Assembly: GCF_000027325.1 (NCBI RefSeq)
Contig: NC_000908.2
Span: 330,001-362,000 of the forward strand
DNA length: 32,000 bases
Origin: Mycoplasmoides genitalium G37
GTDB lineage: Bacteria; Bacillota_I; Bacilli_A; Mycoplasmatales; Mycoplasmoidaceae
Reading direction: 5' to 3'
Shown here: in pieces, positions 8,367 to 19,242 of the stretch
Numbering within the stretch: position 1 is the first letter of the stretch
Layout: every line of letters begins with the position of its first letter
Position numbers and translations under genes: made by a program
Notes under the pieces: generated by a model
The model's database searches: none
The model's input: only the letters and a program-made list of their open reading frames with translations
What the model was told of the DNA's origin: nothing

Positions 8367-10529
8367 ATGGCAACCATTCAGGAAATCGAGTGTGATTTTT
8401 TAGCTAAAATAGCACAAAAATTTACTAATGCAGAGATTGAATTAATTAACAAAGCATTCTATCACGCTAAAACTTGGCATGAAAACCAGAAACGGCTTAG
8501 CGGTGAACCTTTTTTTATCCATCCTTTAAGAACGGCATTATCACTAGTTGAATGGAACATGGATCCTATCACTATTTGTGCTGGTTTGTTACATGACATC
8601 ATTGAAGATACAGACCAAACCGAAGCTAATATAGCAATGATTTTTAGCAAAGAAATTGCTGAGCTTGTCACTAAGGTTACAAAGATTACCAATGAATCTA
8701 AAAAGCAACGTCATCTCAAAAATAAAAAGGAGAATCTTAACTTAAAAAGCTTTGTTAACATTGCAATCAATTCTCAACAAGAGATAAATGTAATGGTACT
8801 AAAACTAGCAGATCGACTTGATAACATCGCTTCCATTGAGTTTCTCCCCATTGAAAAGCAAAAGGTAATTGCAAAAGAAACTTTAGAACTTTATGCAAAG
8901 ATTGCTGGGAGGATTGGGATGTATCCTGTTAAAACAAAATTAGCAGATCTTTCATTTAAGGTGTTGGATTTAAAAAACTATGATAACACCCTGTCAAAGA
9001 TTAACAAGCAAAAGGTCTTTTATGACAATGAGTGGGATAACTTCAAACAACAATTAAAAAAAATCTTAGCGCAAAATCAGATAGAATACCAACTTGAAAG
9101 TCGGATTAAAGGCATTTACTCTACATATAAAAAACTAACTGTTCATGAACAGAACATCAGTAAGATCCATGATCTTTTTGCTATCCGCTTAATTACTAAA
9201 TCAGAACTTGATTGTTATCACATCCTTGGTTTAATTCACCTTAATTTTTTAATTGACAGTAAATACTTCAAAGACTATATTGCCTCACCTAAACAAAACC
9301 TTTACCAATCAATTCATACCACTGTTCGTTTAAAAGGGTTAAATGTTGAGATCCAAATTAGAACCCAACAGATGGACAATGTTAGTAAGTTTGGCTTAGC
9401 TAGTCACTGGATCTACAAAGAACAGAAAGAGGGATTGTTAGCACCTGCTTTGCAACTTAATTACCTAGTGACAAAACAAAAACACTCACATGATTTTCTA
9501 AAAAGGATTTTTGGGACTGATATTATCAAGATTAATGTTAGTGCTAGTCATGAACCTAATGTAATTAAGCAAATTAATGTTGATAGCAACAATAAACTCC
9601 TTGATATTGCTTTTGAAAACTATCCCAAGCAATTTGCTAAATTAACCAAAATTGAAATTGATGGGGTTGAGATCAATTCTTTTGATACTAGTGTTGAAAA
9701 TGAGATGCTGATTGAATTTTACTTTGGCAAGAATAACAATTTGAAATCAAAGTGAATTAGGTATATGAATAACCCTATATACCGTGAAAAGGTAAAAAAG
9801 AGCTTGGCTAAACTAGCTAAATCTGGTAGATACAGTGAGTTAGCTTTTTATGAAAAAGAACTGGGTGAAAAACAGTTAAAACTTGCTAGTGAAACTGAAA
9901 TCCAAAAACGCTTAAACACCCTAAGAATTAAAAAAATGAGTGATTACTTAGCGTTAATTGAGTGTACTAACTTTACTAATGATGAACATTTGTTGTTTCT
10001 AGCTAAAAACAACGACAAGTGAAATAAACTAACAAAACCACTTAAGTTTGCTTTTTCAAAAGTAGTTTTTCACAACTCTTACTTTGAACAAATTGAAGGT
10101 ATTTTTATCACCAAAATAGTGATTGAACCATGTTGTAGTAAGATCCCTGATATGCCTGAACAAGTAACTGGTATCTTAACTAAAAACATTTTAAGTGTTC
10201 ACCGTTATGGTTGTAAGAATTTACAAAATAAAAAGCAGTTAAAAATTATCCCGTTATATTGAAATATCCAGCAGTTAAAACTAAAACCACGTAAGTTTCG
10301 CAGTTACATTAACATTAACGGAGTGTGGAGTGAAAAAACCATTAATAAAATCTGTCAAACAATTATTAATGGTGATGGTTATATTGAAAAAATAATTCCC
10401 AAGATCAACAAACAAAAAGATGAATTTGATTTAAACATCACCCTTTTTGTTAATAACTACCAACAACTTCTCACCTTAATGGACCAAATTACCACTAAGA
10501 ATATCAGCTTTAGTTGAAAATACCTTTAG
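8367..10529 (+). CDS. relA: Bifunctional (p)ppGpp synthetase/hydrolase, RelA/SpoT (Rel) family, 720 aa
   Basis: Track ORFs 8367..9755, 9765..10022 and 10323..10517 are in the same frame and joined across TGA. Real TAG at 10527-10529. HD hydrolase motif LLHDIIEDT. Synthetase region GIYSTYKKL...DLFAIRLI...YQSIHTTV. Confidence 0.93.
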
Positions 10530-14364: not shown

Positions 14365-14850
14365 TTATCTGTTGCTGATCTTCAGGATTTTAACACGATA
14401 GGGAACTTCAATACCAACAACATCACATTCATCACCAATTAAACGCCCATAGATTGCAAGGGCAAGGGGTGATTCATTGGAAATTTTGTGTTCTTCAGGA
14501 TTTGCTTCAAGTGTACCTACAATTGTGTATTTTTCGTTCGATTTAGAACTGTAATCATAGATCTCAACAGTGCTCCCTAAGCTAACTTTTGTTACTTTGG
14601 TTTTTGCTTGGTGGTCACTAATTAACTTAGCGTTGGCTAATATATCTTGAATTTCAGCAATCCTAGTTTCAATCTCACCTTGCTGTGCTTTAGCTGCATC
14701 ATAATCAGCATTTTCACTTAAATCACCCTGATCACGTGCTTCTTGTAAGAGTCTGATAATCTCAGGACGTTTAACTTGGATTAGGTTTTCAAGTTCTTTT
14801 TCCAGTTGCTTAAATCCTTCTTGAGTTAGGTAATTTTTATTTAGTTCCAT
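14365..14850 (-). CDS. greA: Transcription elongation factor GreA, 161 aa
   Basis: Track ORF. The N-terminal coiled coil with the DLSENADYDAAK motif and the C-terminal globular domain are typical of GreA. The TAA stop is 27 nt upstream of the tRNA-Tyr 5' end. Confidence 0.93.
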   Translation of the reverse strand: MELNKNYLTQEGFKQLEKELENLIQVKRPEIIRLLQEARDQGDLSENADYDAAKAQQGEIETRIAEIQDILANAKLISDHQAKTKVTKVSLGSTVEIYDYSSKSNEKYTIVGTLEANPEEHKISNESPLALAIYGRLIGDECDVVGIEVPYRVKILKISNR

Positions 14851-15181: not shown

Positions 15182-16633
15182 ATGACAAAAAAAACACAAG
15201 ATCTCACTAGTTGGTATGACCAACTGCTAGTTAAAGCAAAGTTAATTTGTCATGGTGAAGTTAAAGGTACAGTTTGTTTTTTAAATAACAGTTGAGGCTT
15301 ATGGATGGAAATCCAACAGCTTTACAATGATGCAATTGCAAATAAAAATCAATTGTCTGCAATTGCTCTAACTAAATTCCAACCAACTACTAGTTTTTGT
15401 TATCAAGTATTCCAAGTACAACTCCCTACCCTTTCTTTTTACAGTGAATATCAAAAGGAAAAAACCCATATCAAAGGTTTTAATCCTGAGCTTTTTTTAA
15501 TTAATCAAGTTGGTCAAAAACAACTCAATGATCCTTTGGTTTTACGACCTACTAGTGAGATTGCTTTTTGCAACTTATGGAAAAAACAAGAGTTATCTTA
15601 CCATGATCTACCTTTAATTTATAACCAGTGAACTCAGGTTTTTCGTGCAGAAAAAAACACCAGACCTTTTTTGAGAAACAGTGAGTTTTACTGACAAGAA
15701 ACTCATGGGCTTTTTGTGGATCAGAGCCAATCTGAACAAGCTGCTATTAGCTTTTGAAATTTATATCAGGATTTAATTATTAACAAACTTTGTATCCCTG
15801 CTTTTGTTGGTTTGAAAAGTGAAAGTGAAAAATTTGCAGGTGCTAAAAACACATGGACAATAGAAGCAATTATGCCTGATGGACAAAGTTTACAATGTGC
15901 CACTAGCCATGATTTAGGTGACACTTTTACAAAGAGTTTTACTATCAGCTATCAGAGTAAAACTAACCAAAAAATGACTCCAAGTAGTTTTAGTTGTGGG
16001 ATGTCAACTAGGATCTTAGGAGCAATTTTTTTAACCCACAGCGATGATTATGGTTTGGTTTTACCTTGGTATCTAGCAAGTAAACAAGTCAAGTTATACC
16101 TGTTTGATAAAAACAATAACCCTAAAACAAGAGCTTTAGCTTTTTTAGTGAAGGATTTTTTAGAAAAACTCAAAATTCGCTTTAGTTTTATAGAAATTAA
16201 CAATCAACTAGGTAAACAACTTTTAAAAGGAGAAATAGAAGGTATTCCATTACAGATGATTGTTGATAATGAAAAAACTATTAACATCTTCAACCGCTTA
16301 ACACGTTTAAAAACCAGCTTAACATTTGCAAATCTCCAAACTGAATTTGTTAATTTAGTTAACAACTACCATACAGAGATGTATAGAAAAGCAAATGATT
16401 TAGTTGAACAAAAACTAGCAAGAGTACAAACTTTAAAGGAAATTGAACAAGCATTCAAAAATAAAAAGGCTGTTTTATGTACCGTGAAGTTAACTGGTGA
16501 ACTTGAACAACACTTAAAGACAAAATACCAAGTTAGTGTTAGGTGTGTTTTTAAAAAGTCAGATGTAACACAAAACTGTCCTTTTACAAATCAACCTTGT
16601 TTTGATTCAGTTTTAATTGCACGTGCTTACTAA
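15182..16633 (+). CDS. proS: Prolyl-tRNA synthetase (class II, short archaeal/eukaryote-like type), 483 aa
   Basis: ATG at 15182 (MTKKTQDLTSWYDQLLVKAKLI...). Track ORFs 15305..15631 and 15812..16633 are in frame with it across TGA. Class II motif region LRPTSEIAFCNLW...FRAEKNTRPFLRNSEF. TAA stop. Confidence 0.92.
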
Positions 16634-16853
16634 CAAAGTACTGTCAATCACTACCCAATAAAACCCTTGATTATTTGGTTTTATTTAATTTATTTCTAAA
16701 TATTTTTTACCAGTAATTTTTGTTTAAAAACAAACTCGTTTTGTAAAAGAAAAAAGTTAGAGTTGTTGTATTTCAATAACGATTATTTAGCCTCTAAAAT
16801 CGATTAGACGATCTTCTGATCGTTTAAGATTTATTCAAATTCAACATGACTTT

Positions 16854-17252
16854 ATGACTTTTACAAACAAAGAAAAAAATTGCAAACAAAGCAAATCATT
16901 AGCAGCGTTGATGACAAAATTTAAGCGCTCGCAATTAATCTTGAAACACCAAGCTAATAACATAGCACTGGAGTTGTGAAATGAAAATGATATTAACCTA
17001 TCAAAACAGCTTATTGAGTTAATAGAAGATACTTTTTCAATGCTTAAAAAAGAAACTGTTGATTTTATCTATGACATCTATATTTATGGCAAAAAGCCGT
17101 GTGATATTGGTTATTCTAATTCCACCTATTACAAAAAACTAAACAAAGCAGCTAATAGTTTTTTTGACCATTTTGTTTGAGATTCGTCAATATTAGACAA
17201 AAGGATCATAACTAATGGCAGCAATTCTCAACGTACAACGAATTCAAAATAA
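16854..17252 (+). CDS. Small protein of 132 aa with a C-terminal helix-turn-helix resembling sigma-70 region 4 or ArpU-type regulators (MG284 by recollection)
   Basis: ATG at 16854 is the first ATG after an in-frame TAG at 16788. Two in-frame TGA. TAA at 17250-17252. HTH-like stretch VDFIYDIYIYGKKPCDIGYSNSTYYKKLNKAANSFF. Invisible in the ORF track because TGA splits it into short pieces. Confidence 0.65.
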
Positions 17253-18258
17253 CCAAGTCACTGAGTACACAATGAGTCCAGTGCGTAATTTTGCAAACAC
17301 AAAAGATGTATATTTTGATGCGCAATTAACAAATATAGAAAGCAAAATTGATAGTAGTAGGGCTCAAATTCACCTTACTATTGCACTAAAATACAACACT
17401 AATCTCCCTGATAATATCTTTCAAGCCCACTTCAGTTTAGGCAATTGACAAAGTGATAAGATTCAACTTCAAAAAGCTCCTGATAAAAAACACGATAGTT
17501 TAAACAGCATTAAATATTTTTATGCATTTCTAGATGTACCCCGTTCAGCACTAGCAAAAAAAGAAATTAATAGGTTTAGTAATGTGGTTGCTAGAGTATT
17601 GAGAATAAGTTTTCGCTTGCAAGATCAATCTGAAAAAGGGAATTGAAGTGACTATCATTTGTTTGATACTGTAGCTAGTGAATTGTATGCAACAGTAATT
17701 AAAGAAACAATCAACTTTGGCAACATGATTAAGATTAATGCACTTGATGGTAGTAAACAGCTAACTAGTAGCCAAGGAAGTTTTAAATACAGTTGAACAA
17801 TGTATGACTATAGGAATTTAGAACAACTTGATGAGGTGAGAAACTTGATCAATATCAGTTTTGACAAACCAGTTCAAATAGTAAATGTTGATGTCAAAAT
17901 TCACTATGTTCCAACTAAAGGTAGGTTACAAGAGATAAAACAACAAGGTGAGTTTGAAAATAACCTTGATGTTAATGAAAAGCTTAAACTCAATTTAATA
18001 GGCAATTGAAATTTTGACAAACATAACAAGAAGCTAATCAGTGATATTTCAGGTACTGGAATCTTTTTACCCCAGGGTGGTTATGGAAGTTATGAAATAA
18101 TGATTGGCGCTACAGTAGGTAATGATTTCTACACAATTATAGCCAACAACCAGTTTAAGTACGAAACACCTTTAGATGATCTTGAACAAAATGACTTTTT
18201 TGAGGTAAATTATTTACCTGTTTACAGTACATACAACTTTAGTGATTTAACTCAGTAA
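17215..18258 (+). CDS. Conserved hypothetical protein, 347 aa, no signal peptide (MG285 by recollection)
   Basis: Track ORFs 17215..17448 and 17800..18009 are in the same frame. The intervening and following segments are interrupted only by TGA. TAA at 18256-18258. The start overlaps the previous gene by 38 nt in a different frame. Confidence 0.75.
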
Positions 18259-18260
18259 GT

Positions 18261-18851
18261 ATGATTTTTTCAATTAGTAAACGAAAGTTAATTTGCGGAT
18301 TTTTGCTAGTTATTTTAACAATAGGTGGGGTTTTGGGTGGTGTTTATTTAGTTACTAAAAACAACAAGGATAACTACCAAAATGAAAGTAATTTCAACAA
18401 TCAAGAACAAATTAGTAAAATCCCTAATTTCAAAGCTATTGGTCCTGAAACACAACGTATCTTAAGAGAAAGAAACTATCCTTTAGATGATAGTGGTTAT
18501 TATGTTTATAAGTATGGTGAAATTAATAGGTATCTAAGAAATGAAAGTGAACTAGATGAATTAATTAACTATAGAGTGATGGTACCTTCACTTAAATTAC
18601 ATCACAAAAGGGTTAATTTTGATAAGGCATTTCTTGAAAGTAAATTAAGAAAATGGATTATCAAAGCAATTAAGCAACATAACTATTTCCAACACTTTGA
18701 AAATGAACCAAATTTAAGAGTTCAATATAACATGAATATTCCAGCACAAAAAATTGATGTTAATGCTGTTTGATCTTATAAAAAAGATAATGATGCTGCT
18801 ACTGGTAAGCCAATCCGATATTGAGATCAATTTGAGCTTAAACTTAAATAA
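18261..18851 (+). CDS. Hypothetical membrane-anchored protein, 196 aa (MG286 by recollection)
   Basis: Track ORF 18261..18773, extended through TGA to TAA at 18849-18851. N-terminal TM LICGFLLVILTIGGVLGGVYLV. The start lies 2 nt after the previous stop. Confidence 0.8.
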
Positions 18852-18882: not shown

Positions 18883-19137
18883 ATGCAAACGCATGAAATT
18901 CTTTTAAAAATTAAAGAAATTGCTAAATCAAAAAACTTTAATCTTAATTTAGATGAAAAGACAATAAATCAACCACTTCGTGAGTTGAAAATCGATTCAC
19001 TTGATATGTTTAGTATTGTTGTTAGTCTAGAAAATGAATTTGGGATTAGTTTTGATGATGAAAAGTTAATGAATCTAAAAAATCTTGCTGACTTGGTTTT
19101 AGAAGTTAAAAACCTTTTAGCAAAAAAAGGGGTATAG
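18883..19137 (+). CDS. acpP: Acyl carrier protein, 84 aa
   Basis: Track ORF. Phosphopantetheine attachment motif LKIDSLDMFSIVVSLENEF (DSL). TAG stop. Confidence 0.9.
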   Translation: MQTHEILLKIKEIAKSKNFNLNLDEKTINQPLRELKIDSLDMFSIVVSLENEFGISFDDEKLMNLKNLADLVLEVKNLLAKKGV

Positions 19138-19202
19138 TTCAAAGGTAGAACATCTGTCTTCAAAATAGAGTGTTGTGGGTTCGAGTCCTGCTACCCCTGC
19201 CA
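19128..19202 (+). tRNA. tRNA-Trp (anticodon UCA, reads UGA/UGG), CCA encoded
   Basis: AGGGGTA TA GTTC AAAGGTA GAAC A TCTGT CTTCAAA ATAGA GTGTT GTGGG TTCGAGT CCTGC TACCCCT G CCA folds as a 75-nt cloverleaf. Its first 10 nt overlap the last codons and the stop of acpP. Confidence 0.9.
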
Positions 19203-19210
19203 TAAAATAT

Positions 19211-19242
19211 AAAAGCTTAGTAAGTTTTTACTAAGCTTTTTT
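19211..19242 (+). terminator. Intrinsic terminator after tRNA-Trp
   Basis: 13-bp perfect stem aaaagcttagtaa (19211-19223) / ttactaagctttt (19228-19240), loop gttt, then further T residues. Confidence 0.8.

What the first reader, a model, noticed from the sequence alone, without database searches (positions are those of the whole stretch)
16854..17252. Sigma-region-4-like small HTH protein at the head of an uncharacterised three-gene cluster
The 132-aa protein ends in VDFIYDIYIYGKKPCDIGYSNSTYYKKLNKAANSFF. Its spacing (hydrophobic helix, turn, IG.S..T....L..A) resembles the -35-binding HTH of ECF/sigma-70 region 4 and ArpU-type phage regulators. This genome is known to have very few regulators, one being a minimal alternative sigma that drives recombination with MgPar donors. 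The gene overlaps the next ORF by 38 nt. It is preceded by a 220-nt spacer that contains the inverted repeat acgatc-ttct-gatcgt (16808-16823), 31 nt before the ATG. So it is a candidate second minimal sigma-like or activator protein, possibly autoregulated.
Basis: inference. Interest (0 to 1): 0.62.

Follow-up and report, generated by a model that had tools for sequence, protein, structure and literature searches.

The report
MG284: sigma-region-4-like regulator, not a sigma
This small Mycoplasma genitalium gene (MG284) encodes a DNA-binding protein whose fold copies the promoter-reading end of a sigma factor and whose nearest relatives are phage late-gene activators, so it is a credible new regulator candidate in a genome with very few, sitting directly before two genes that the recombination sigma factor σ20 is known to switch on.

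Summary
ORF 16854-17252 (code 4, 132 aa) is MG284 of M. genitalium. The tail sequence, the 220-nt spacer, the 38-nt overlap and the inverted repeat are all present.

The HTH reading is supported. AlphaFold gives a long N-terminal helix followed by a four-helix domain. That domain superposes on sigma region 4 structures at 1.7-2.7 Å, although the Foldseek E-values are weak. Profile-profile comparison places the MG284/MPN403 family (NF045770) beside the phage late activators ArpU (96%, E 6e-9) and DUF1492/LtrB (91-95%). It is not UPF0122/YlxM. There is no sigma region 2, so it is not a sigma factor.

The gene heads a module found across mollicutes: a small HTH gene, a gene of about 290-360 aa, and a gene for a membrane-anchored protein. 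Published RNA-seq and primer extension (PMC6105099) show that MG285 and MG286 are σ20-induced from a start site upstream of MG285, which lies inside MG284. MG284 itself is not listed as induced.

The inverted repeat is not conserved in M. pneumoniae, although the recognition helices are identical. It is therefore more likely an RNA hairpin or terminator than an operator.

The first stage of this scan noted the same family on another genome. No function has been published. My best reading is an ArpU-like, promoter-specific activator (about 0.5).

The parts
15182..16633 (+). proS (MG283), the upstream neighbour. It is also upstream of the MG284 homologue in several other mollicute genomes.
   Evidence: ORF list; phmmer synteny with L008, L017, L018 and L020; L032.
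16795..16800 (+). TAAAAT, a -10-like box conserved between M. genitalium and M. pneumoniae. It is the candidate MG284 promoter, and the hairpin would start at about +1.
   Evidence: Invariant columns 176-181 in the Mgen/Mpn alignment. That it works as a promoter is inference; no TSS data were available.
16804..16827 (+). Inverted repeat / hairpin TTAGACGATC-ttct-GATCGTTTAA followed by a T-rich stretch. It looks like a terminator or a 5'-UTR stem-loop.
   Evidence: -11.4 kcal/mol, z -2.8. The sequence is not conserved in M. pneumoniae.
16854..17252 (+). MG284 coding sequence (132 aa, table 4), a member of the MG284/MPN403 family.
   Evidence: NF045770 E 5.5e-13; 76% identical orthologue in M. 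pneumoniae.
16863..16955 (+). Codons for the long N-terminal helix (residues 4-34). It precedes the DNA-binding domain and may serve dimerisation or RNA polymerase contact (inference).
   Evidence: AlphaFold model with pLDDT above 90 over most of the helix.
16983..17171 (+). Codons for the four-helix sigma-region-4-like domain (residues 44-106). The HTH is residues 66-106 and the recognition helix is NSTYYKKLNKAANSFFDH.
   Evidence: Y87, Y93 and A99 are invariant and S88 nearly invariant in the family alignment.
17164..17195 (+). Best conserved candidate for the published σ20-dependent promoter of MG285: TTGACC-N19/20-AATATT/ATATTA, lying inside the 3' end of MG284.
   Evidence: Motif scans. 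M. pneumoniae has TTGACC-N20-ATTTAT ending 19 nt before the MPN404 ATG. The existence of the TSS comes from PMC6105099; its exact position is my inference.
17215..18258 (+). MG285 (DUF5443, 347 aa). It is σ20-induced, predicted as two beta-sandwich lobes, and homologous to the second gene of the module in other genera.
   Evidence: (hhalign 98%, E 3e-14); PMC6105099 Table 1.
18261..18851 (+). MG286 (DUF5452, 196 aa), σ20-induced, with a hydrophobic N-terminal stretch (residues about 11-31) read as a membrane anchor.
   Evidence: list of gene-3 N-termini; the anchor is read from the sequence and was not computed; PMC6105099 Table 1.

Best explanation
MG284 is a small DNA-binding protein of the MG284/MPN403 family. 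It consists of a long N-terminal helix, a four-helix domain with the fold of sigma-70 region 4 (the part that reads the -35 element), and a disordered tail. The family is a chromosomal sister branch of the phage late-gene activators ArpU, LtrB (DUF1492) and RinA.

I propose that it works as those activators do. It would be a promoter-specific activator that binds a site at or near the -35 position and helps RNA polymerase holoenzyme start transcription. It lacks region 2, so it cannot replace sigma.

The most likely target is the conserved module it heads, MG285 and MG286. In most mollicutes these genes are translationally coupled to it. In M. genitalium and M. pneumoniae they also have a σ20-dependent promoter embedded in the 3' end of MG284.

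The upstream inverted repeat is an RNA hairpin, either the proS terminator or a 5'-UTR stem-loop. It is not an MG284 operator.

Shown here: the fold, the family relationships, the synteny, and the σ20 induction of MG285/286 (the last from the literature). Inferred: DNA binding, activation, and the identity of the target.
For: - **Fold.** The AF2 model has pLDDT 81 and pTM 0.69, with helices 4-34, 44-62, 66-77, 82-85 and 89-106. The low-rmsd Foldseek PDB hits are sigma region 4 domains: SigL 3hug (1.7-1.9 Å over 55 columns, probability 0.97), SigE 2h27, SigD 3vep/3vfz, and ECF holoenzymes 6dv9_F and 5zx2_F. BFVD hits are 108-154-aa phage proteins labelled ECF sigma, transcriptional activator or Sigma70_r4, aligned over nearly full length.
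- **Sequence profiles.** phrog_248 'transcriptional activator' matches 19 of 19 family members, best E 7e-8. Weak DUF1492 hits occur in 7 of 19 and 10 of 150 members. Sub-threshold TIGR01637 ArpU hits reach E 1.3e-4 over nearly the whole length in family members.
- **Profile-profile.** hhalign gives ArpU 95.9% (E 5.6e-9), DUF1492 91-95% (E 1e-6 to 2e-8) and UPF0122 below 1%. The ECF region 4 alignment is in the correct register but weaker (10-58%). DUF1492 versus ECF scores 96%.
- **Direct link to ArpU.** The family profile hits a bona fide ArpU protein at G064:C71:104.4k.
- **Known function of relatives.** LtrB/DUF1492, ArpU and RinA are experimentally shown activators of phage late promoters (PMC3753634).
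- **Conservation.** The family is single-copy in 43 of 61 sampled genomes of the same GTDB family. Against M. pneumoniae dN is 0.21 while dS is saturated.
- **Synteny.** The order HTH gene, MG285-like gene, anchored-protein gene recurs across genera with changing upstream genes: proS, a TsaD-like gene, a MetK-like gene.
- **Link to σ20.** MG285 and MG286 rise 16-18-fold on σ20 overexpression, with a mapped TSS upstream of MG285 (PMC6105099).
Against: - There is no direct evidence of DNA binding, of a target site, or of any effect on transcription.
- MG284 gets no hit from Pfam sigma or HTH models. Foldseek E-values are weak (0.7-5 against PDB, 0.04 at best against BFVD), as is usual for a 60-residue domain.
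- MG285/286 expression in M. genitalium is already explained by σ20, and MG284 is not in the σ20 table. An activator role at that promoter is therefore not required.
- No DNA motif shared upstream of the homologues was found.
- In three non-mycoplasma genera the family gene sits next to ptsI and not next to an MG285-like gene. The target therefore cannot be universal.
- Region-4-like HTH domains also occur in repressors (KorA) and in non-transcriptional proteins (UPF0122, small terminases).
Confidence: 0.5

Rival explanations
1. MG284 is a true minimal alternative sigma factor, or the region-4 half of a split sigma. It would bind core RNA polymerase and direct it to its own promoter class.
For: It has a region-4-like fold. 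By sequence, σ20 of this organism also shows only region 4 (PMC4446450). Mollicutes are reported to carry partial sigma homologues with only a -35-binding domain (PMC5138195). The MG284 family is present in genera where no σ20 homologue was detected.
Against: The protein has only one long helix ahead of the region-4-like domain, so there is no region-2 bundle for -10 recognition, DNA melting or clamp-helix binding. hhalign to ECF sigmas aligns region 4 only, at 10-58% probability. The closest families are activators, not sigmas. At 132 aa, with about 25 residues disordered, it is smaller than σ20 (171 aa). No partner carrying region 2 was identified.
Confidence: 0.07
2. MG284 is an accessory or antagonist of σ20. 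It would act as a region-4 look-alike that modulates σ20 or σ70 occupancy of RNA polymerase or of σ20 promoters, placing it upstream in the σ20 activation cascade.
For: It lies next to the σ20-dependent MG285 promoter and overlaps it. The authors of PMC6105099 expect unidentified factors upstream of RrlA and RrlB. The fold is region-4-like.
Against: The distributions do not match. The MG284 family is in 8 of 12 sampled genera. σ20 homologues are detectable mainly in 2 genera, one of which lacks MG284. There is no sequence link to RrlA or RrlB, and no experimental hint. hhalign of the family against σ20 itself finds nothing.
Confidence: 0.12
3. MG284 is a DNA- or nucleic-acid-binding protein with a non-activator role. 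It could be a repressor of its own module, or a structural or recombination-related DNA binder that works with MG285 and MG286.
For: The same HTH fold occurs in KorA repressors and in UPF0122. The module is induced together with recombination genes. No activator target was found.
Against: The closest families by profile are activators. UPF0122 is excluded (below 1%) and coexists with the family in other genomes. The inverted repeat that could have been an operator is not conserved.
Confidence: 0.2
4. MG284 is a decaying remnant of a phage regulator with no current function.
For: Its relatives are phage-borne.
Against: It is single-copy and syntenic across many mollicute genera in a non-phage context. 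It is 76% identical between M. genitalium and M. pneumoniae, with dN 0.21 against a saturated dS. Several residues of the recognition helix are invariant or nearly so. It is retained in a 580-kb genome.
Confidence: 0.04

Closest known systems
ArpU family phage packaging/lysis transcriptional regulators (TIGR01637; Ltr superfamily of Quiles-Puchalt et al. 2013, PMC3753634)
   Same: Similar size (about 100-150 aa). Both have an N-terminal helical part followed by a C-terminal region-4-like HTH. hhalign gives 95.9%, E 5.6e-9 over 71 columns. The MG284-family profile finds a bona fide ArpU protein.
   Different: MG284 and its relatives score below the TIGR01637 cut-off: best E 1.3e-4 at 22 bits, against a cut-off of 43, and no hit in the M. 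genitalium genome. The context is chromosomal and non-phage, with no terminase downstream. The helix before the recognition helix is 4-6 residues shorter.
LtrB / DUF1492 (PF07374) phage late activators
   Same: hhalign gives 91-95%. Weak direct Pfam hits occur in 7 of 19 and 10 of 150 members.
   Different: Most members, and MG284 itself, are below the Pfam gathering score. The two families occur in different genomes and families: f7 has 0 of 15 genomes with DUF1492 but 11 of 15 with the MG284 family.
Sigma-70 region 4 of ECF sigma factors (PF08281/PF04545), including σ20/MG428 of the same genome
   Same: Same four-helix fold at 1.7-2.7 Å rmsd. The alignment register is the same as regions 4.1-4.2.
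   Different: There is no region 2. Pfam region-4 models do not detect MG284 in the genome. hhalign probability is only 10-58%. There is no detectable similarity to σ20 itself.
UPF0122 / YlxM (PF04297; PDB 1xsv)
   Same: A small protein of about 110 aa with a region-4-like HTH. It appears as a Foldseek hit at rank 16.
   Different: hhalign probability is below 1%. UPF0122 coexists with MG284-family genes in the same genomes and is nearly universal in Bacilli (189 of 200). The two families are therefore not orthologous.

Membership tests
MG284/MPN403 family (NCBIfam NF045770) | Match to the 57-position C-terminal domain model above the 37.3-bit cut-off | tested here: met
   48.7 bits, E 5.5e-13, residues 53-107. 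Relatives in other Bacilli score 66-77 bits.
Sigma-70 family sigma factor | Region 4 (-35-binding HTH) present | tested here: inconclusive
   The fold matches region 4 and the profile register is right. Pfam Sigma70_r4 and r4_2 give no hit, and hhalign probability is 10-58%.
Sigma-70 family sigma factor | Region 2 (-10 recognition, core binding) present | tested here: not met
   The model shows a single 31-residue helix ahead of the region-4-like domain. No region-2 alignment to the ECF set was obtained.
Sigma-70 family sigma factor | Binds core RNA polymerase and directs promoter-specific initiation | not testable with these tools
   Needs pulldown and in-vitro transcription.
ArpU family (TIGR01637) | Score above the 43.1-bit curated cut-off | tested here: not met
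   No hit for MG284 or anywhere in the genome at E <= 10. Family relatives reach at most 22 bits. Homology shows only at profile-profile level.
ArpU/RinA/Ltr superfamily | Encoded in a phage or prophage just upstream of terS and the late operon | tested here: not met
   Neighbours are proS, MG285, MG286 and acpP. Other genomes have a TsaD-like gene, a MetK-like gene, proS or ptsI as neighbours. tblastn of a homologue from a related genome (L005) against 50,697 phage records found nothing.
ArpU/RinA/Ltr superfamily | Activates transcription from a cognate promoter | not testable with these tools
   Needs reporter assays or RNA-seq.
DUF1492 / LtrB (PF07374) | Score above the 21.5-bit gathering cut-off | tested here: not met
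   MG284 gets no hit at E <= 10. Seven of 19 relatives hit only at E >= 0.02.
UPF0122 / YlxM (PF04297) | Profile similarity, and one orthologue per genome | tested here: not met
   hhalign probability below 1%. The family coexists with UPF0122 in the same genomes.

The most novel reading that the evidence does not exclude
MG284 is the dedicated 'region-4-only' co-activator of an ancient mollicute module (MG285/MG286-like surface proteins). In σ20-less mycoplasmas it would be the sole switch for the module. In M. genitalium and M. pneumoniae it would act together with σ20 at the promoter embedded in its own 3' end. That would tie a conserved membrane module to the σ20 recombination and cell-to-cell DNA-transfer programme, and would supply one of the missing upstream control factors.
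Probability: 0.12. Interest if true: 0.8.

Novelty: new member of a known kind. Interest (0 to 1): 0.5.

Why it matters
M. genitalium and M. pneumoniae are model minimal cells with only a handful of recognised transcription factors. I found no function for MG284/MPN403 in the searchable literature. Placing it in the sigma-region-4 / ArpU-LtrB activator superfamily adds a concrete and cheaply testable regulator candidate.

Its position gives a direct experiment on two open questions from PMC6105099. It overlaps the σ20-dependent promoter of MG285/286, two σ20-regulon genes of unknown function. One question is what acts upstream of, or alongside, σ20. The other is what the non-recombination members of the regulon do in antigenic variation and horizontal DNA transfer.

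The family also extends to Ureaplasma, M. gallisepticum and non-mycoplasma Bacilli, so a result would transfer to those organisms.

Tried and rejected
- **Direct searches with MG284 alone.** Pfam found nothing even at E 10. phmmer against PDB sequences gave only noise. The word-indexed homologue search found only M. genitalium and M. pneumoniae. PADLOC defence models found nothing for MG284, MG285 or MG286.
- **Comparison with σ20.** hhalign of the family against the single σ20 sequence gave nothing.
- **Phage records.** tblastn of a family member against the phage collection gave no match.
- **UPF0122/YlxM identity.** Rejected.
- **σ20 consensus near MG284.** TTGTCA-N18/19-ATTWAT was scanned with up to 2 mismatches. 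No + strand site lies between proS and MG285 except ATGACA-N17-ATTAAT at 16911. The published promoter must therefore be degenerate, and I can offer only a conserved candidate.
- **Shared operator or motif.** Upstream regions of the homologues show nothing general.
- **Inverted repeat as operator.** Rejected on non-conservation.
- **MG285 structure.** The model has only moderate confidence (pLDDT 68). Foldseek gave generic two-beta-sandwich matches (arrestin, cytokine receptor, adhesins) at TM about 0.2, so no function could be assigned.
- **Extent of the module.** The gene-2 profile did not detect the second genes in L031 and L033.
- The supplements of PMC6105099 and PMC6721554 are not held.
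- **dN/dS.** Not computable because dS is saturated.

Full report
**What is there.** The window is part of the 580-kb Mycoplasma genitalium chromosome (G000:C1:330001-362000). Read with table 4, the gene order is:

| Gene | Coordinates | Strand |
|---|---|---|
| greA | 14365-14850 | - |
| proS | 15182-16633 | + |
| ORF of the finding | 16854-17252 | + |
| 347-aa ORF | 17215-18258 | + |
| 196-aa ORF | 18261-18851 | + |
| acpP | 18883-19137 | + |

MgPar-like repeats follow. The ORF of the finding is MG284. NCBIfam NF045770 'MG284/MPN403 family protein' matches residues 53-107 at E 5.5e-13. The M. pneumoniae orthologue is 76% identical. The downstream genes are DUF5443 (MG285) and DUF5452 (MG286). 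The only correction is that 30 nt, not 31, lie between the repeat and the ATG.

**Is it an HTH of the sigma region 4 type?** Direct searches are silent. Pfam gives nothing at E 10, and PDB sequence search gives noise. PHROGs gave a first hint: phrog_248 'transcriptional activator', E 4.7e-4.

I collected homologues from whole genomes. The family is single-copy in 43 of 61 sampled genomes of the same GTDB family, in 8 of 12 genera. Source names include Ureaplasma, M. gallisepticum, M. imitans and M. bradburyae. I aligned 19 of them as A1.

- All 19 hit phrog_248, best E 7e-8. Seven hit DUF1492 weakly.
- An AlphaFold2 model built on A1 is confident (pLDDT 81, pTM 0.69). It has a 31-residue helix (4-34), then helices 44-62, 66-77, 82-85 and 89-106, and a disordered tail.
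- Against the PDB, every low-rmsd Foldseek match is a sigma region 4 domain or a close structural cousin. These are SigL region 4 (3hug, 1.7-1.9 Å over 55 columns, probability 0.97), SigE region 4 on -35 DNA (2h27), SigD region 4, ECF holoenzymes, UPF0122 and KorA. E-values are weak (0.7-5), as expected for a 60-residue domain.
- Against viral models, the matches are 108-154-aa phage proteins called ECF sigma, transcriptional activator or Sigma70_r4, aligned nearly end to end.
- A profile of 150 wider relatives gives as its best PDB sequence hit region 4 of an RNA polymerase sigma factor (8x6g_H). The alignment is in the exact 4.1-4.2 register, with a 4-residue deletion before the recognition helix. 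E is 0.05, so this is suggestive only.

**Which known family is closest?** An exhaustive profile search found 320 representative clusters, all about 90-140 aa. Whole-genome searches across the class found the family in 28 of 200 sampled genomes outside the starting family. Those relatives score higher on NF045770 (66-77 bits) than MG284 does. They also give sub-threshold hits to ArpU (TIGR01637, E 1.3e-4 over positions 12-130 of 136) and RinA.

I built reference alignments from genomes for DUF1492/LtrB, ArpU, UPF0122 and ECF sigmas and ran hhalign:

| Comparison | Probability | E-value |
|---|---|---|
| MG284 family vs ArpU | 95.9% | 5.6e-9 |
| MG284 family vs DUF1492 | 91-95% | 1e-6 to 2e-8 |
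| MG284 family vs UPF0122 | below 1% | - |
| MG284 family vs ECF sigma (region 4 only, right register) | 10-58% | 3e-3 to 1e-4 |
| DUF1492 vs ArpU | 93% | - |
| DUF1492 vs ECF | 96% | - |

The ArpU reference set holds only three sequences, and one of them (L046) is the protein described next. The MG284-family profile hits a protein at G064:C71:104.4k at E 7e-7, and that protein is a bona fide ArpU member, above its cut-off.

The MG284 family is therefore about as close to ArpU and LtrB as those two are to each other, and it is linked to sigma region 4 through them. ArpU, RinA, LtrA and LtrB are experimentally shown activators of phage late promoters (PMC3753634). MG284 fails the curated cut-offs of each of these families and is not phage-borne. 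I file it as a sister family, not as a member.

**Is it a sigma factor?** No region 2 exists. One long helix precedes the region-4-like domain, and no alignment to ECF region 2 is obtained. In the genome, Pfam region-4 models find rpoD and σ20 (MG428, 171 aa), plus one weak sub-threshold match at 8809-8928 (E 0.047), and none of these is MG284. A defining feature of sigma factors is thus tested and not met.

The 2016 survey of mollicute regulators already remarked that many putative alternative sigmas in this class have only a -35-binding domain (PMC5138195). I could not tell whether MG284 was among them.

**The cluster.** In loci from many genera, the homologue is followed by a protein of about 290-360 aa and then by a protein of about 130-200 aa whose N-terminus looks like a membrane anchor. 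The genes often overlap by 4 nt. The upstream gene changes among proS, a TsaD-like gene and a MetK-like gene. The second genes are homologous across genera (hhalign 98%, E 3e-14). The same three-gene layout appears in three further GTDB families (L031, L032, L033), although there the second gene is not detectably similar. In three non-mycoplasma genera the family gene instead sits directly upstream of ptsI.

MG285 models as two beta-sandwich lobes. The confidence is only moderate, and only generic structural matches were found. No function can be assigned.

**What the literature adds.** Torres-Puig et al. 2018 (PMC6105099) showed by RNA-seq that MG_285 and MG_286 rise 16- and 18-fold when σ20 is overexpressed. 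By primer extension they showed that a σ20-dependent TSS lies in the region upstream of MG_285. They note a putative σ20 promoter upstream of MPN404 as well. MG_284 is not in their table. Because MG284 overlaps MG285, that promoter must lie inside the MG284 coding sequence.

No site with 2 or fewer mismatches to TTGTCA-N18/19-ATTWAT exists there on the + strand, apart from ATGACA-N17-ATTAAT at 16911, which has the wrong spacing. The best conserved candidate is TTGACC (17164-17169), N19/20, then AATATT/ATATTA. It matches TTGACC-N20-ATTTAT in M. pneumoniae, which ends 19 nt before the MPN404 ATG. That distance is typical of σ20 promoters (Table 1 of PMC4446450). This placement is my inference.

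Detectable σ20 homologues are concentrated in two of the 12 sampled genera, and one of those two lacks the MG284 family. The module is older and wider than σ20, so elsewhere it must be expressed in some other way.

**The inverted repeat.** It is real. As + strand RNA it forms a 10-bp stem at -11.4 kcal/mol, z -2.8. It is weaker on the - strand. It looks like a terminator.

In M. pneumoniae the sequence is different. Only a marginal hairpin (-4.7 kcal/mol, z -1.0) sits at the same place. Yet the recognition helices of MG284 and MPN403 are identical, so an operator for this protein should have been conserved. I therefore read the repeat as an RNA element: either the proS terminator or a stem-loop at the 5' end of the MG284 mRNA. 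A TAAAAT box conserved in both species lies just upstream, at 16795-16800.

**Verdict.** MG284 belongs to an uncharacterised, widely conserved family whose DNA-binding domain derives from sigma region 4, and whose nearest relatives are the ArpU/LtrB/RinA phage activators.

- 'Second sigma factor' is not supported.
- 'Autoregulated through the palindrome' is not supported.
- The most likely mechanism is an ArpU-like, promoter-specific activator, probably for its own MG285/286 module (confidence about 0.5 for activator, lower for the target).
- Rivals are a σ20 accessory or antagonist, a repressor or other DNA-binding role, a minimal or split sigma, and a non-functional remnant.

The first stage of this scan had flagged the same family on another genome with the same idea (e1-2531450). 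That note repeats the idea and is not independent evidence.

Noticed in passing
L021:2279-3312 (M. pneumoniae representative genome, G019:C1): MPN404, the MG285 orthologue, is split by a frameshift. MG285 residues 3-91 align in frame 2 and residues 92-347 in frame 1. The σ20-regulated gene may therefore be broken in this M. pneumoniae genome.
   Followed up: partly
L023:1135-3023 (G000:C1, about 533.8-535.7 kb); L027, L028, L029: The σ20 gene MG428 overlaps ptsI (MG429) tail-to-tail by 4 nt. In three non-mycoplasma Bacilli genera the MG284-family gene lies directly upstream of ptsI, whose identity is confirmed at E about 1e-140. This may be a recurring link between small region-4-like regulators and ptsI, or it may be coincidence.
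   Followed up: partly
whole genome G000: UPF0122/YlxM (PF04297) is not detected in M. genitalium at E <= 1, although 189 of 200 sampled Bacilli genomes have it, including other Mycoplasmatales families.
   Followed up: no
L009 and L014, about 70 nt upstream of the MG284 homologue: A 36-nt stretch holding the perfect palindrome TTTACAAA-T-TTTGTAAA is identical in two genomes of one genus while the flanks differ. It is a candidate operator in that genus.
   Followed up: no
L008:2666-3163 and L017:2665-3165 (oriented loci): In one genus the third gene of the module has no N-terminal anchor. It carries an 'IPSGCLS' motif that resembles the 'LP..' motif near the start of the MG285-like genes, so it may be a tandem paralogue of gene 2.
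   Followed up: no
P0082 (305 aa, from the representative library): This protein matches the MG284-family profile in four stretches at E 1e-9. One member of the same 150-protein set, not identified individually, scores E 4e-32 on Sigma70_r4_2, and P0082 is the likeliest candidate.
   Followed up: no
window 19128-19242: acpP is followed closely by a strong terminator-like hairpin on the - strand scan (19240-19211, 13 pairs). I did not examine this.
   Followed up: no
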